Assembly: GCA_964016885.1 (NCBI GenBank)
Contig: OZ024742.1
Span: 246,884,001-246,948,000, forward strand
Source: Eledone cirrhosa
Lineage: Eukaryota
Reading direction: 5' to 3'
DNA length: 64,000 bases
This document shows, piece by piece, positions 1 to 46,590 of this stretch. The position numbers and the translations under genes are program-made. Position 1 is the first letter of the stretch. Each line of letters opens with the position of its first letter. Below the pieces are notes generated by a model that was given only the letters and a program-made list of their open reading frames with translations, was not told the origin of the DNA and did no database searches.

Positions 1-277
1 TCAGTGATGCATCTGGACTATCACAGTGATGAAATTTACTACGGACATAACACAATAACACCCGTGTCTGAAAGAACCCGCAGAAGTAGAATCAGCCAGA
101 TCCATACAAGGACCATGACTCGAGCTACATGACGGCGAAACATTTGTAACAGGAAATAAACTAAGTCCAGATGCATCACTGATTTTTCGTTTTGTTTATA
201 GTATATACACTCTACTCTGATGAATATCGGGTGCTAATTTTGGCATACCGCCTACGGAAGCACCATAGCTACCACTA
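1..277 (+). mobile_element. Short non-coding PLE-derived element, family A (cut by window edge), with HHR-like motif at 63-153
   Basis: Inverted repeat 1-19 vs 164-182; near-identical to 13748-13966; CGTGT-CTGAAAGA...GAAAC-ATTT-GTA motif. Confidence 0.7.
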
Positions 278-437
278 CACACACACACACACACACACAC
301 ACACACACACACACACACACACACACACACACACACAAATAACTTCAGAAAACTTTACTGTTGAGTGCTCTAATCTATCGTAAAACTATATTCATTGATT
401 AATCAATGAACCTTGTTTAACTTTTGGTTATATATAT

Positions 438-612
438 AAAAGCTTCTACAGGACTAGAACTGTTTCATTCGTGAGGAAGCTTCCTGATGATTTCTCACGC
501 GAAAGAAACAGTTCTAGTCCTGTAGAAGCTTTTCTATATTAAACATTTATACTCTGCTATACATTGAGTACCTTACTTACTGTGGTTAACCCCGATTGAA
601 TCCGAAATAACT
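438..612 (+). mobile_element. Palindromic HHR-bearing PLE-derived element, family B, in (TA)n
   Basis: Perfect 29-bp inverted repeat 438-466 / 505-533, unique tail to 612, TA tracts on both sides. Confidence 0.75.
477..531 (+). ncRNA. Type I hammerhead ribozyme
   Basis: Stem I AAGCTTC/GAAGCTT; core CTGATGA 484-490; stem II TTTC/GAAA; GAAA 505-508; stem III ACAG/CTGT; GTA site 522-524. Confidence 0.85.
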
Positions 613-641
613 TATATATATATATATATATATATATATAT

Positions 642-1010
642 AATCATGAGTATGTGTTGGTTGTTTACCGACACCCTAGTATGCAGGTTGGAACGCGCAA
701 CGAAGTGCGCATGTTGGTTTGTTTACTCCGGAGTAATGTAAAAATAAGAAGTGTAAGTCAACAGGGTAAAATTAGCTTCGTTTATTCACAGAACTCATCA
801 GGCAGTAAGGATTTAAACAGAAAAAAACAGGAAAATATGATGTTGTAATGGACTTTACCTTGTTACTTCATTGATATGCCCAGCTCCTGGAAGCATATGC
901 TTCCAGTCTCTTAGAGGGCTAACAACACACCCAGGATCTGGACATATAAATGAATTAACAAGGTAAAATTCATTACAACATCATATTTTCCTGTTTTCTC
1001 TGTTTAAATT
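642..1010 (-). mobile_element. Palindromic PLE-like short element with degenerate HHR core
   Basis: Inverted repeat ~811-890 / 931-1009; minus-strand CTGATGA-GTT..AAC-GAAG near 775-801; TA-flanked. Confidence 0.45.
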
Positions 1011-1030
1011 ATATATATATATATATATAT

Positions 1031-1219
1031 ATAGGAACCAGTAAGACCCCGACAGCTGAGCTCAAGCCGTTTCGACGGCTAATTCTGAATTAGCCGTCGA
1101 AACGGCTTGAGCTCAGCTGTCGGGGTCTTACTGGTTCCTATTACCCACTCTACTACTTCAAGTATTGAGTACTTTGGTGCGTTATGGTCCACCTGGTTCC
1201 TTACCACATTTCCTTCGTT
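1031..1219 (+). mobile_element. Palindromic PLE-derived element, family C (3' half of HHR only)
   Basis: Perfect palindrome 1031-1141 containing GAAAC-GGCTTGAGCTCAGCT-GTC; tail to 1219; second copy at 26840-27034. Confidence 0.75.
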
Positions 1220-1289
1220 ATATATATATATATATATACATGTATATATATATATATATATATATATATATATATATATATATATAACG

Positions 1290-1510
1290 ATAGATTAACG
1301 GAGCCATAGACTCTCGCCATTCCCTGTCAATAATGTGCTCAAAGGAGAAGGAATCCTGAGCTCTTTAAAATACAATATTTTGAAAAGGTAACACACTAGA
1401 GAGAGATAGTGCGCCATCAATAAAACATGAAAAAACCAGCAGTGTATGGAATTTATAACCTATTGATGGTGTACTATCTCTCTCTAGTGTGTTACCTTTT
1501 CAACATATTG
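1290..1510 (-). mobile_element. Palindromic short element in (TA)n, no HHR core visible
   Basis: ~50-bp inverted repeat 1373-1422 / 1461-1510 with one-sided tail; same architecture as neighbours. Confidence 0.45.
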
Positions 1511-1960
1511 TGTATATATATATATATATATACACACACATATATATATATATATATATATATATATATATATATATATATATATATATATATATATATA
1601 TATATATGCAATGGTTCTGCGCCGTGGAATCTAAGTATTGAAGTGCCTGGTTGCATAGCAGATCATTACAGAACAAATGCAATATCCGTAAGCGTCAGTG
1701 GGTGGACAGTGTTTAGCGACTAATGTATCAAGGGGACTAATGGATCGAGGTGTAATAAGTCTAACGAATTGAGGTGCTACGCAACGACTTTGATGTCTTG
1801 AAATGTGCATAACAGGATGATATAATAAACTGATACCGTCTCTACCGATACTATATGCATATAGCCTCCACCCCAAAGGCCAGACTAACCACCCCGGCCA
1901 ACTTGAAACACTTTGTGTTTTTGTATCTCTGTATTTGTCTTGCCTATATTATATATAACT

Positions 1961-44100: not shown

Positions 44101-45075
44101 CTGTGAGTACAGGATTTCCTCGACGAAGCCGCAGTCCGACAGGAAGTTCTTGGAGAATGGAATGTCTTCAAGTGCTCACTGCCTTCAGCAAATCGGGTAC
44201 TACGATCGGTGGAAATTCCACCTTAGCGTTCTATAGAGGCAGAGGGTAACTGGAGGGTAAAAGCGCCGAAGTCCCTACGGAGACCCTGGGCGTCGATGAA
44301 AATCAAGTAGCCAAACTTTTCCGAAGAACTTTCGGACCAGGGACCATGGATAACTTCCAGGAAACCCTGGCATAGCCCTGCTACCAGCAAGCATCGCCAG
44401 TTCAAGATAAACTCTACAGGTATGGAAGTTCCGTAAACCGGCCCTGTCCGAGATGAGTGCAGGGCGAAGAAACCGTCCGAGAAGGACACGTCAATTGTCC
44501 GCTGCTGTCACGTGTAGGACGGATCCGGCTATCAGTTAAGTCCTTCGTGAGGATTGCACGGCCATCTTTCTTTAGCCAAGAAGAATAGGCAGTTTTTATC
44601 TGCCATGGCGAAAGCGGTCGTGTGGTGAACACGTTTAAAAAGTCTGATGACAAGCACTTTCTTCTTTGGCGAAGCTCTGATTAACTATTTTAGGTATCAT
44701 TTAAAGGGGAAAATGAGGGTGGCGAGGGATCTGCTACCTTCCAAGCAGTTAGTTGAAAGATAGGTGAGAGAGGTGAGCATGGTCTGAGTGAATGGGCCTG
44801 CTCTGAGTATGCGCCTATAGATAAGAGGTGTAGAACTGGTAGAGCGCTCTTGCCCTGATAGTCACGATGACCGTGGCTTTTTGTAGGCTTTCGCCATGTG
44901 TGACCTACGGAAGACGCTGCCCCACCAATTCGGGAATTTACTTTGTTTGAATCTGTTTTCTATATCTCGTTATATGAAATTTTTGCACACTAAAACTCAC
45001 ACTTCTCCCATCCTCTTCTGTCTGTATCGGCCTTAATGCTTTTCTTCATGTAAGCCTTGCGTGGCTAATAGAAAA
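41184..45075 (+). mobile_element. Decayed Tx1/L1-clade LINE: ORF1 remnants 41250-42575, ORF2 start 43991, large internal deletion, 3' end 44250-45075
   Basis: GKRPHCFVCG knuckle; MATLRVGCLNICGLGS; 3' part homologous to 59750-60390; GTGGCTAATA end motif; follows (TTC)n 41087-41183. Confidence 0.8.
42576..43897 (+). repeat. Duplicated copy of 37443-38865 inserted into the LINE; includes HHR 42778-42859
   Basis: Direct sequence identity; LINE-like sequence resumes at 43898. Confidence 0.88.
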
Positions 45076-45114
45076 AACAAAAAAAAACGAAAAAGAAATT
45101 ATTATTATTGTCAA

Positions 45115-45560
45115 GGGCAATGGATTGAAAGTATCGGTAGAGCGTCGAACAATATGCTTTGCAGCATAGAGTTACCGCTCTTTACGATCTGAGTTCAAAT
45201 CCCTCCGAGGCTAGCTTTGCCTTTCATCCTTACGAGGTCGATAAAAATAAAGTGCCAGTAATGCAGGATTTGAACTAAGAAGGTAGAGGGCCGTAACTCT
45301 ATGCTGCAAAGGATGGTGTCCGACGCTTTACCGATACTGTCAATAAATAATGATTTCTAATATAGGCACAAGGCCAGTAATTTGGGTGAGGGGGAAGTCG
45401 AGTAAATCCACCCCAGTTCGTTAGTGGCGCTTTATTTTATCGACCCCGTAGGGATGAAAGACAAAGTTAACCTCAGCGGGATTTGAACTCAGACCTAAAA
45501 GGGCCGTAACTCTATGCTGCAAAGCATGGCTTCCGACCCTCTACCGATACCATCACCCTT
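45115..45560. mobile_element. Family-1 SINE cluster (one plus copy, two minus copies)
   Basis: Same A/B boxes and body in both orientations. Confidence 0.8.
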
Positions 45561-45611
45561 GATAATGATAATAAATAATAATAAGATTAAGAATAAATAA
45601 ATACACACACA

Positions 45612-45656
45612 AATATTGCTGATGAGTTGTAACAACAACGAAACTAGTTCAATATT
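45612..45656 (+). ncRNA. Minimal type I hammerhead ribozyme, copy 1
   Basis: AATATTG-CTGATGA-GTTG/CAAC-GAAAC-TA-GTT-CAATATT. Confidence 0.85.
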
Positions 45657-46078
45657 CCTTGTCTGGCCTTCTGGAGAATAGAGGGAAGGTGTTCCCCCGA
45701 AAACCAGTATGACTCTAAAAACCGGTTTGTCTGTGTGTTTACATACAGAATAGCTGGGCTGCTCACAGTAAAGCAACCAGTGAAAGACTTGTTACACCTA
45801 CATATGTATACGTGTGTGTATTCATATACACACTAGTATTTCAGTATGCATATGTAGATGTACATTTTTAACTTAATTGTTTAAGCGTCAGTCATACAAA
45901 AGTGAGTTACAAACGAAACGAAATTTAATTTCGTTTCGTTATTTGTTTTTATCGTCTCCGCTGAACCGGTGCGTACTCACACTCTATGCAAATTAGTCTG
46001 CCCACTACTAATTTTCATAGAAAAAGCATATAACCATATGTGCTTTTACAATTCTCCAGAAGGGCCGGTAGATTAGTA

Positions 46079-46123
46079 AATATTGCTGATGAGTTGTAAA
46101 AACAACGAAACTAGTTCAATATT
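46079..46123 (+). ncRNA. Minimal type I hammerhead ribozyme, copy 2
   Basis: As copy 1, one change in loop II. Confidence 0.85.
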
Positions 46124-46545
46124 CCTTGTCTGGCTTTCTGGAGAATAGAGGGAAGGTGTTCCCCCGAAAACCAGTATGACTCTAAAAACCGGTTTGTCTG
46201 TGTGTTTACATACAGAATAGCTGGGCTGCTCACAGTAAAGCAACCAGTGAAAGACTTGTTACACCTACATATGTATACGTGTGTGTATTCATATACACAC
46301 TAGTATTTCAGTATGCATATGTAGATATACATTTTTAACTTAATTGTTTAAGCGTCAGTCATACAAAAGTGAGTTACAAACGAAACGAAATTTAATTTCG
46401 TTTCGTTATTTGTTTTTATCGTCTCCGCTGAACCGGTGCGTACACACACTCTATGCAAATTAGTCTGCCCACTACTAATTTTCATAGAAAAAGCATATAA
46501 CGATATGTGCTTTTACAATTCTCCAGAAGGGCCGGTAGATAGGTA

Positions 46546-46590
46546 AATATTGCTGATGAGTTGTAACAAGAACGAAACTAGTTTAATATT
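46546..46590 (+). ncRNA. Minimal type I hammerhead ribozyme, copy 3
   Basis: As copy 1; G-U in stem I, stem II GTT/AAC. Confidence 0.8.

What the first reader, a model, noticed from the sequence alone, without database searches (positions are those of the whole stretch)
1..46590. Swarm of a dozen or more sequence-unrelated HHR families, nearly all in (TA)n tracts
Seen: hand-foldable type I HHRs at 477, 4342/4087, 13276, 13590/13754, 14169/14324, 19745, 23916/2804, 24432/24563, 25126/25835, 27110/28487/32001, 34651/35576, 36792, 37645/42778 and 45612/46079/46546. Their stems differ completely in sequence but pair correctly around the CUGANGA, GAAA and NUH core, and many have palindromic stem III loops (AAUU, GAUC, UAAUUA, CUAG). 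Inference: a very diverse PLE/retrozyme community specialised on TA microsatellites, implying very high genome-wide ribozyme numbers that coding-based annotation would miss.
Basis: partly seen in the sequence, partly recalled or inferred. Interest (0 to 1): 0.8.

Follow-up and report, generated by a model that had tools for sequence, protein, structure and literature searches.

The report
Penelope retrotransposon ends carrying hammerhead ribozymes
The many hammerhead-ribozyme motifs here are real and mark the ends of Penelope-like jumping genes, and of small non-coding elements that likely borrow their enzyme, piled up in TA repeats; this is a known kind of system, here at an estimated 100,000-plus copies per genome, with copy ends that suggest a testable rule for where the copying enzyme starts and stops.

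Summary
All 26 listed sites fold as type I hammerheads at the stated coordinates. Twelve pass a strict descriptor and 15 a relaxed one (0 in reversed or shuffled window); 11 are mutated or weak-stemmed copies. Fifty-nine evenly spaced 10-kb genome samples give 24-37 hits, about 130,000-190,000 per 3-Gb genome, and 35 of 37 lie within 250 nt upstream of (TA)n (null 18%).

They are not all free-standing retrozymes. Five of the 14 families are pseudo-LTRs of protein-coding Penelope-like elements: four Hydra (one via sister subfamilies), one Neptune/Nematis-type. Four are non-coding tandem units; five are unresolved. Hydra elements with hammerheads and (TA)n targeting are published, including in Octopus.

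Not found in my paper searches: this scale and diversity, stem II of 38-81 nt, a shared R(C/T)TC..GA(G/A)Y hairpin just beyond the two copy ends, and a 42,551-arm family mostly starting inside stem II, likely at a promoter. The scan noted the swarm and these features before on other DNA of this genome. Cleavage and expression are untested.

The parts
27059..32334 (+). Hydra-clade Penelope-like element: inverted 5' arm (27059-27738), upstream pLTR, ORF, 3' UTR, downstream pLTR; both outer ends at (TA)n
28872..31217 (+). RT + C-terminal GIY-YIG ORF, broken by two small deletions near its start; other genomic copies hold an open 794-aa frame with RWK, DKT and CxCX5C motifs
27110..27219 (-). Type I hammerhead, U4C core, 81-nt stem II (inverted arm)
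28487..28595 (+). Type I hammerhead, U4C core, 81-nt stem II (upstream pLTR); U4C in 15 of 15 parsed family copies
32001..32109 (+). Type I hammerhead, U4C core (downstream pLTR)
28657..28725 (+). First tail hairpin (ACTC..GAGT closing stem), about 5 nt past the short 3' end
28829..28846 (+). Second, imperfect hairpin (GCTC..GAGA) about 8 nt past the long 3' end
475..533 (+). Hammerhead in a small two-armed insert (423-612); family is a Hydra pLTR (full element L255), at least 38,116 arms genome-wide
1034..1218 (.).
26841..27032 (.). Second copy of the half-hammerhead two-armed insert
2804..2846 (-). Minimal-type hammerhead (fails both descriptors in this copy) in the pLTR of a Neptune/Nematis-type PLE; inverted partner arm at 3214-3609 has a mutated core
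3044..3229 (-). Coding remnant of that PLE's C-terminal GIY-YIG end, directly upstream of the 2804 hammerhead
23916..23958 (+). Same family, relaxed hit; followed by the first codons of the ORF up to the long 3' end
35829..36630 (-).
4087..4144 (-). Hammerhead copy with U4C change, long-end arm of a two-armed insert (3892-4447)
4342..4399 (+). Hammerhead, relaxed hit; family has a 3.1-kb non-coding unit with both hairpins (L257); 5,546 exact motif copies
13276..13372 (-). Hammerhead, 62-nt stem II, strict hit; 2,234 exact motif copies; parent not found
13590..13680 (-). Hammerhead copy with mutated core, short-end arm
13754..13844 (+). Hammerhead copy with mutated cleavage triplet, long-end arm; family core carries one extra base after A6 (33 of 40 arms); pLTR of a Hydra element with long 3' UTR (L263, L264)
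1..290 (+).
14169..14221 (-). Hammerhead, strict hit, long-end arm; sister subfamilies flank Hydra ORFs (L227-L234)
14324..14376 (+). Hammerhead, strict hit, short-end arm
19745..19831 (-). Degenerate hammerhead, 64-nt stem II; better-paired relative in L076
24432..24481 (-). Hammerhead, strict hit; family forms ~440-bp non-coding tandem units (L258, L259); 1,386 exact motif copies
24563..24612 (+). Mutated partner arm
25126..25210 (-). Degenerate hammerhead, 50-nt stem II; paired stem III in relatives
25835..25919 (-). Second copy with A6C core change
34651..34734 (-). Hammerhead, strict hit, in a two-armed copy (34463-35728) of a 522-542-bp non-coding tandem retrozyme that carries the tail hairpin; 2,265 exact motif copies
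35576..35657 (+). Partner arm with C3A core change
36792..36882 (-). Hammerhead, 62-nt stem II, passes at the strict threshold; parent not sought
37645..37726 (+). Hammerhead with 2-bp stem II base and long stem III; conserved in genomic relatives
42778..42859 (+). Duplicate of 37645 inside a local duplication (37443-38865 / 42576-43897)
38180..38245 (+).
45612..46813 (+). 467-bp tandem non-coding retrozyme, three hammerheads, 3' end in (TA)n; genomic arrays end at unit position 267-273 or 340-341 and often carry an inverted arm

Best explanation
These motifs are type I hammerhead folds in the terminal repeats (pLTRs) of Penelope-like retrotransposons, mainly Hydra clade, and in non-coding tandem elements with the same end structure, likely accumulated because the elements' endonuclease cuts (TA)n and their reverse transcriptase starts at either of two internal sites just downstream of the hammerhead. 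Shown: the folds, the link of five reader families (one via sister subfamilies) plus one missed family to RT/GIY-YIG ORFs, two alternative 3' ends at TA, tail-out inverted arms, and a short hairpin 5-10 nt beyond the ends in Hydra-type families. Inferred: both nicked target strands prime copying, one at each start site, giving two arms of unequal length. The hairpin likely positions the enzyme and is what non-coding elements would borrow. Copying begun in the 5' pLTR would run only to the RNA's start, giving the tens of thousands of tiny inserts. Palindromic stem III likely means cleavage as dimers; cleavage is untested and may not be needed for insertion.
For: Window element 27059-32334 has pLTR-ORF-pLTR plus an inverted arm; intact copies show RWK, DKT, CxCX5C and lack an evident CCHH, the Hydra hallmarks in PMC8557442 section 11, whose File S1 lists (TA)n targeting incl. 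Hydra-1_Obim. Full elements found for families 477 (L255), 23916 (L247), 13754 (L263 and L264) and the half-hammerhead family (L217); Hydra ORF pieces lie between or beside the arms in 8 of 10 fetched loci of the 14169-type group. Two 3' ends per family match the two internal RT start sites shown in vitro for a Poseidon PLE, which cuts and extends both strands (PMC11167929). TA: 35 of 37 sample hits within 250 nt versus 18% null. Hairpin: 11 of 18 tails (shuffle chance 0-9% each); held-out, 8 of 13 strict sample hits with long tails; second hairpin past the long end in L217, L230, L257. In the half-hammerhead family 79 of the first 100 listed arms begin within about 10 nt (hand count), about 30 nt downstream of a TATA-like box, at an initiator-like TTAGTC (consensus recalled).
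Against: No RNA evidence. Five reader families have no parent found (13276, 19745, 25126, 36792, 37645). The hairpin motif was defined after seeing the window tails and after a lead from earlier scan notes; one hit (24563) is probably spurious because other copies differ there; the 467-bp retrozyme and the Neptune/Nematis-type families lack it. The extra G before the start (5,420 G versus 890 A) is partly explained by the mirror arm, and C and T were not counted genome-wide. The 477 family mostly keeps its whole core and I saw no matching TATA spacing in the window's own Hydra pLTR, so a start inside stem II is not general. Clade calls rest on motifs and comparison by eye with the paper's supplement, not on a tree; Pfam gave no hit at threshold for these ORFs.
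Confidence: 0.85

Rival explanations
1. The families are mostly autonomous-like retrozymes that spread as self-cleaved, circularised RNAs, with PLEs only incidental neighbours.
For: Three families are short non-coding tandem arrays with a hammerhead per unit (467, 522-542, ~440 bp), the definition in PMC7229834; a fourth is a 3.1-kb non-coding unit.
Against: Five families are tied to PLE ORFs. The tandem families end at the same kind of two TA-abutting sites with inverted arms, and one carries the Hydra-type hairpin, so they look PLE-mobilised. True for a minority only.
Confidence: 0.08
2. The short two-armed inserts come from reverse transcriptase stalling at the hammerhead's stem II, or from later deletion at palindrome centres, not from a transcription start there.
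For: Stem II is the first stable helix met; palindrome centres vary and hold filler; starts spread over about 10 nt; 39 of 100 arms begin downstream of the proposed +1.
Against: Arms without a mirror partner begin at the same place; the loop and 5' strand of stem II are absent, unlike a snap-back; both arms carry an extra G in some copies (L045, L110). This rival concerns only one step of the best explanation.
Confidence: 0.3
3. The elements are MITE-like fold-back DNA transposons that target TA and happen to contain hammerhead-like sequence.
For: Long inverted repeats flanked by TA.
Against: Arms have unequal, family-fixed 3' ends and variable inner ends; tandem copies exist; families run into RT ORFs; cores and stems covary.
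Confidence: 0.03
4. Chance matches in AT-rich, self-complementary repeat DNA.
For: AT-rich, hairpin-rich DNA; three to five U3-A8 'hits' in one satellite (L056) are such artefacts.
Against: 0 hits in reversed and shuffled window; 1 versus 24-37 in reversed samples; 33,861 versus 17 control matches genome-wide.
Confidence: 0.01

Closest known systems
Hydra clade of C-terminal EN+ Penelope-like elements, incl. Hydra-1_Obim of Octopus bimaculoides (Craig et al. 2021, PMC8557442; abstract, section 11, passages, supplement part 2 and passages read)
   Same: RT + C-terminal GIY-YIG with RWK, DKT, CxCX5C; type I hammerhead near the 3' end; (TA)n insertion; partial tandem, inverted 5' copy, one-sided tail.
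   Different: Many families per genome at 10^3-10^4 copies each; stem II of 38-81 nt in 8 of 14 families against about 26 nt at most in File S2 (counted by eye); family-fixed variant cores (U4C, extra base after A6, U3-A8); tails of about 70-170 nt rather than 30-40; units up to 3-6 kb.
PLE minimal hammerheads (Cervera and de la Pena 2014, PMC4209133; parts 1-2 of 4 read)
   Same: Many heterogeneous families per genome, mostly single motifs from truncated PLEs, pairs 100-700 bp apart on opposite strands, palindromic stem III, U3-A8 variant. The 23916 family fits their minimal architecture.
   Different: Counts there are thousands (about 2,000 S. mansoni, 9,000 X. tropicalis); here about 10^5, and most families have longer stems.
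Metazoan non-LTR retrozymes (Cervera and de la Pena 2020, PMC7229834, passages; Li et al. 2026, bioRxiv 10.64898/2026.07.22.740005, part 1 of 5)
   Same: Non-coding tandem units with one type I hammerhead each; PLE mobilisation proposed; up to 120,000 copies in axolotl.
   Different: Axolotl count is two families in a roughly ten times larger genome (size recalled). Here arrays show PLE-type double ends and inverted arms. Circular RNA not tested.
Poseidon element PAc of Anolis (Frangieh et al. 2024, PMC11167929; parts 1-2 of 4 read)
   Same: Two internal RT start sites downstream of the hammerhead that define the tail; AT-rich target; both strands extended.
   Different: PAc starts in an AC-rich stem-loop inside the ORF; Hydra-type families here have a R(C/T)TC..GA(G/A)Y hairpin past each start, before the ORF.

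Membership tests
Type I hammerhead ribozyme | Core CUGANGA / GAAA / NUH joined by three stems, open at stem I | tested here: met
   15 of 26 copies pass a descriptor; 21 of 26 have an unmutated or family-typical core and triplet; covariation across families
Type I hammerhead ribozyme | Canonical core without variants | tested here: not met
   Not met for three families: U4C, extra base after A6, U3-A8. All three have precedent; the first two lower activity in vitro (PMC3088659 passages)
Type I hammerhead ribozyme | Self-cleavage at the NUH site | not testable with these tools
   No assay; no RNA run listed
Hydra-clade PLE | Single ORF, RT then C-terminal GIY-YIG, with RWK, DKT and CxCX5C | tested here: met
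   L008 and others, L217, L255; the window copy is broken near its start
Hydra-clade PLE | Absence of the CCHH motif in the endonuclease | tested here: inconclusive
   None seen by eye in printed translations; not scanned formally
Hydra-clade PLE | Hammerhead in the pLTR and (TA)n insertion | tested here: met
Hydra-clade PLE | Placement in the clade by RT phylogeny | not tested
   Only motif match and comparison by eye with Hydra-1_Obim text
Neptune/Nematis-type PLE (23916 family) | C-terminal GIY-YIG with CX2-5CxxC linker | tested here: met
   1,318-aa ORF in L247 with linker CIDKKCITC; the two clades were not told apart
Non-LTR retrozyme (45612, 34651, 24432 families) | Non-coding tandem units each with a type I hammerhead | tested here: met
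Non-LTR retrozyme (45612, 34651, 24432 families) | Expression as linear and circular monomer RNA | not testable with these tools
   No RNA holder listed
MITE / fold-back DNA transposon | Equal-ended terminal inverted repeats with a fixed interior | tested here: not met
   Arms end at two different family-fixed sites and join at variable inner points

The most novel reading that the evidence does not exclude
In Hydra-type Penelope elements the pLTR is one compact module: the long hammerhead stem II can hold the core promoter, so the element's own capped RNA starts inside the ribozyme and cannot cut itself, and twin hairpins just downstream set the two reverse-transcription starts. Two-strand priming on that module mass-produces tiny two-armed inserts, and any non-coding RNA that keeps the hairpins can ride the enzyme, which is how one animal genome comes to hold over 100,000 hammerheads in dozens of families.
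Probability: 0.35. Interest if true: 0.72.

Novelty: new variant of a known kind. Interest (0 to 1): 0.47.

Why it matters
The class is known, but the genome offers a very large natural data set on how Penelope-like elements copy themselves, which has been shown in vitro for one element only in the papers read. The conserved hairpin, the two ends and the 5' start zone give direct predictions for a reconstituted assay and for how animal retrozymes are mobilised, a link so far proposed mainly from co-occurrence and phylogeny. It also shows that standard RNA-family scans miss about 10^5 ribozyme-like motifs in such a genome (0 Rfam hits at threshold in this window).

Tried and rejected
Rfam scans: no hit at gathering threshold, swamped by microsatellite miRNA models at E<=10. 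First descriptor was too tight (stem II region <=40 nt) and found 3-5 sites.

I first read the 1034/26841 family as lacking any 5' half of the core, since only 30 of about 42,000 arms had CUGANGA within 30 nt. This was wrong: the parent has a U3-A8 core and a 53-nt stem II, and 21 of 100 arms run on into it. My genome estimates therefore omit U3-A8 cores; they also omit permuted hammerheads, which I did not look for.

Naiad assignment rejected: endonuclease is C-terminal. Snap-back through stem II rejected: loop sequence absent from arms.

Expression: no RNA holder listed; laying four contig sets on the Hydra pLTR said nothing on expression, though loose ends into TA fell at both 3' ends, possibly in the same sample.

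Parent ORFs not found for 13276 (six loci fetched), 25126 and 37645 (1.5-kb flanks of 20 loci each); 19745 and 36792 were not pursued. Protein search returned 398 relatives, nearly all unnamed.

Papers not held: PMC3334697, PMC5785218, so I could not check the Schistosoma count or Lunse et al.; a higher per-megabase density there is possible. Literature searches run; none listed a cephalopod hammerhead census or the hairpin, and none supplied a citation for the cap-G signature (recalled). Subscription papers and bioRxiv supplements were not visible. An O. vulgaris repeat annotation (PMC13282606, passages) has no occurrence of 'ribozyme' in its main text.

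
Full report
Setting. The window is AT-rich animal DNA, dense in (TA)n up to 47.5 kb. It lies in a 3.0-Gb assembly. An octopod is likely, by resemblance to Hydra-1_Obim and to a SINE recalled from Octopus; this is inference.

Observation. I wrote a type I descriptor allowing stem II up to 90 nt and the cores CUGANGA, CCGANGA and CUGANNGA. It gave 12 hits in the window, 0 in the reversed window and 0 in 50 shuffles; a relaxed setting gave 15 versus 0. Relatives elsewhere keep the fold for the failing families 13754, 19745, 25126 and 37645. 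Stem I pairs covary across the 14 families: 3.79 of 4 within, 1.77 across. Four of 120 pairs of representatives show similarity at z>4. Rfam reports nothing at threshold.

Scale. I fetched 59 stretches of 10 kb at pre-set positions (60 asked, one absent). They hold 24 strict and 37 relaxed hits in 589,800 nt, against 1 in reversed and 0 in shuffled sequence. Whole-genome exact patterns agree: one stem III type alone gives 33,861 matches versus 17 for the control, close to the roughly 30,000 predicted from its 6 sample hits; the 477 family gives 38,116 arms versus 6. The 37 hits form 20 clusters at 80% identity (Chao1 50) or 16 at 70% (Chao1 25). The window is about four times denser than the sample. 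U3-A8 and permuted forms are not counted.

TA link. 19 of 24 strict hits lie within 150 nt upstream of a TA tract (null 13% over all loci, 23% over hit-bearing loci), and 35 of 37 relaxed hits within 250 nt (null 18%). Hit number tracks TA-tract number per locus (Spearman 0.54).

What the families are. The 27110/28487/32001 motifs sit in the pLTRs of a Hydra-clade element in the window; the genome holds many copies at 95-99% identity, several with an open 794-aa frame bearing RWK, DKT and CxCX5C, the hallmarks in PMC8557442 section 11. The 477 family flanks a Hydra ORF in L255. The 13754 family is continuous with a Hydra ORF through a long 3' UTR in L263 and L264. Sister subfamilies of 14169 have Hydra ORF pieces between or beside their hammerheads in 8 of 10 loci chosen for paired arms. 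The 23916/2804 family is the pLTR and ORF start of a 1,318-aa PLE with a CX4CxxC linker (L247), and the window itself holds its coding tail upstream of 2804 and 35869. Families 45612, 34651 and 24432 are non-coding tandem units of 467, 522-542 and about 440 bp, and 4342 has a 3.1-kb unit with no element-derived ORF over 110 aa. Five families stay unresolved.

How copies are made. Families examined have two alternative 3' ends at TA, and two-armed inserts usually have one arm at each. This matches two internal RT start sites and extension of both target strands shown for PAc, where hammerhead mutants still insert in vitro (PMC11167929). Two-strand priming as the source of the arms is my inference. 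Following a lead from earlier scan notes, I found a R(C/T)TC..GA(G/A)Y hairpin opening within 14 nt of the end in 11 of 18 tails, with ACTC/GAGT, GCTC/GAGC and GTTC/GAAC versions. The motif was defined on those tails, one hit is probably spurious, and one family missed by a single base. In held-out loci 8 of 13 strict hits with long tails carry it. A second copy follows the long end in three full units and imperfectly in the window element. The 522-542-bp retrozyme has it; the 467-bp one and the Neptune/Nematis-type families do not.

Tiny inserts. The palindromes at 1034 and 26841 hold only GAAA, stem III and the cleavage site. There are 42,551 exact arms. The parent is a Hydra pLTR with a U3-A8 core (L217). 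By hand count of the first 100 listed arms, 21 run on into the parent and 79 start within about 10 nt; of these, 21 reach the A of AGTCC with a non-parental base before it (G 13, C 5, A 3), 19 extend 1-4 nt further and 39 start just after. A TATA-like box lies about 30 nt upstream, inside stem II. G precedes that A 5,420 times and A 890 times, as expected if RT copies a cap (recalled), but the mirror arm can also supply that G. A transcription start inside the ribozyme is therefore likely (about 0.6), not shown, and not general: most 477-family arms keep the whole core. D. virilis Penelope has its promoter in the pLTR (PMC2377424, passages).

Against known systems. Hammerheads in pLTRs, many families per genome, opposite-strand pairs and palindromic stem III are in PMC4209133. 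(TA)n targeting and hammerheads in Hydra, including an octopus family, are in PMC8557442. Retrozymes reach 120,000 in axolotl (PMC7229834) and are argued to derive from PLEs (bioRxiv 2026.07.22.740005). Variant cores have precedent (PMC3088659). Not found in my eight searches: the census in a cephalopod, stem II of 38-81 nt in 8 of 14 families, the twin hairpins, and the start zone in stem II. The scan's earlier notes report all of these on other DNA of this genome; they are not independent support.

Verdict. Observation confirmed, interpretation supported with refinements. A known kind of system in an unusually rich variant; activity untested. Interest 0.47.

Noticed in passing
window 55350-60391 (+), further pieces to 63449: LINE with a zinc-knuckle ORF1-like frame and a 1,091-aa endonuclease/RT ORF2 (Pfam RVT_1, Exo_endo_phos), L1/Tx1-like by recall; broken relatives near 41465-44700 and 60581-63449.
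   Followed up: partly
window 28493-28580; L045:7095, L052:915, L086:648: The four ~80-nt stem II arms share an inner pattern (GAGU, a 3-bp CRC/GYG helix, then YAG), seen by eye; possibly a conserved internal loop.
   Followed up: no
L151, L154, L157, L158, L160, L166: Half-hammerhead arms joined in the same orientation to the 5' half of other families' hammerheads, some with short shared sequence at the joint; could be template jumps between families, but the search pattern selects for such joints.
   Followed up: partly
L258 (24432 family unit): Two ATGCAAAT octamers upstream of the hammerhead in the ~440-bp unit, suggesting an snRNA-type promoter.
   Followed up: no
L093-L119, upstream of the 13754-family hammerhead: CCAAT-box-like and CRE-like words about 80-110 nt upstream, a candidate pLTR promoter.
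   Followed up: no
window 32381-32830: Two-armed TA-abutting repeat found in 6 of 59 sample loci; a core-like motif is not conserved in relatives. Unresolved.
   Followed up: partly
window 335-430, 645-810, 18361-18626: Tail-only or truncated PLE ends with the hairpin but no complete hammerhead, so hammerhead counts understate insertion numbers.
   Followed up: partly
window 37443-38865 and 42576-43897: Local duplication at 92-99.8% identity carrying two hammerhead families.
   Followed up: yes
window 1964-2149, 39155-39722, 45099-45574: Several copies of a ~190-bp SINE-like repeat (resembles an Octopus SINE, recalled).
   Followed up: no
window 4800-10400, 15700-17700, 47700-51200: Long strand-skewed minisatellite arrays producing spurious long reading frames.
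   Followed up: no
window 15200-15700: Short internally repeated element with core-like CUGAYGA words but no hammerhead fold; weak relatives in 3 of 59 loci.
   Followed up: partly
G000:C1:132947039-132947578: 46-bp tandem array made from the long-end junction of the 23916 family.
   Followed up: no
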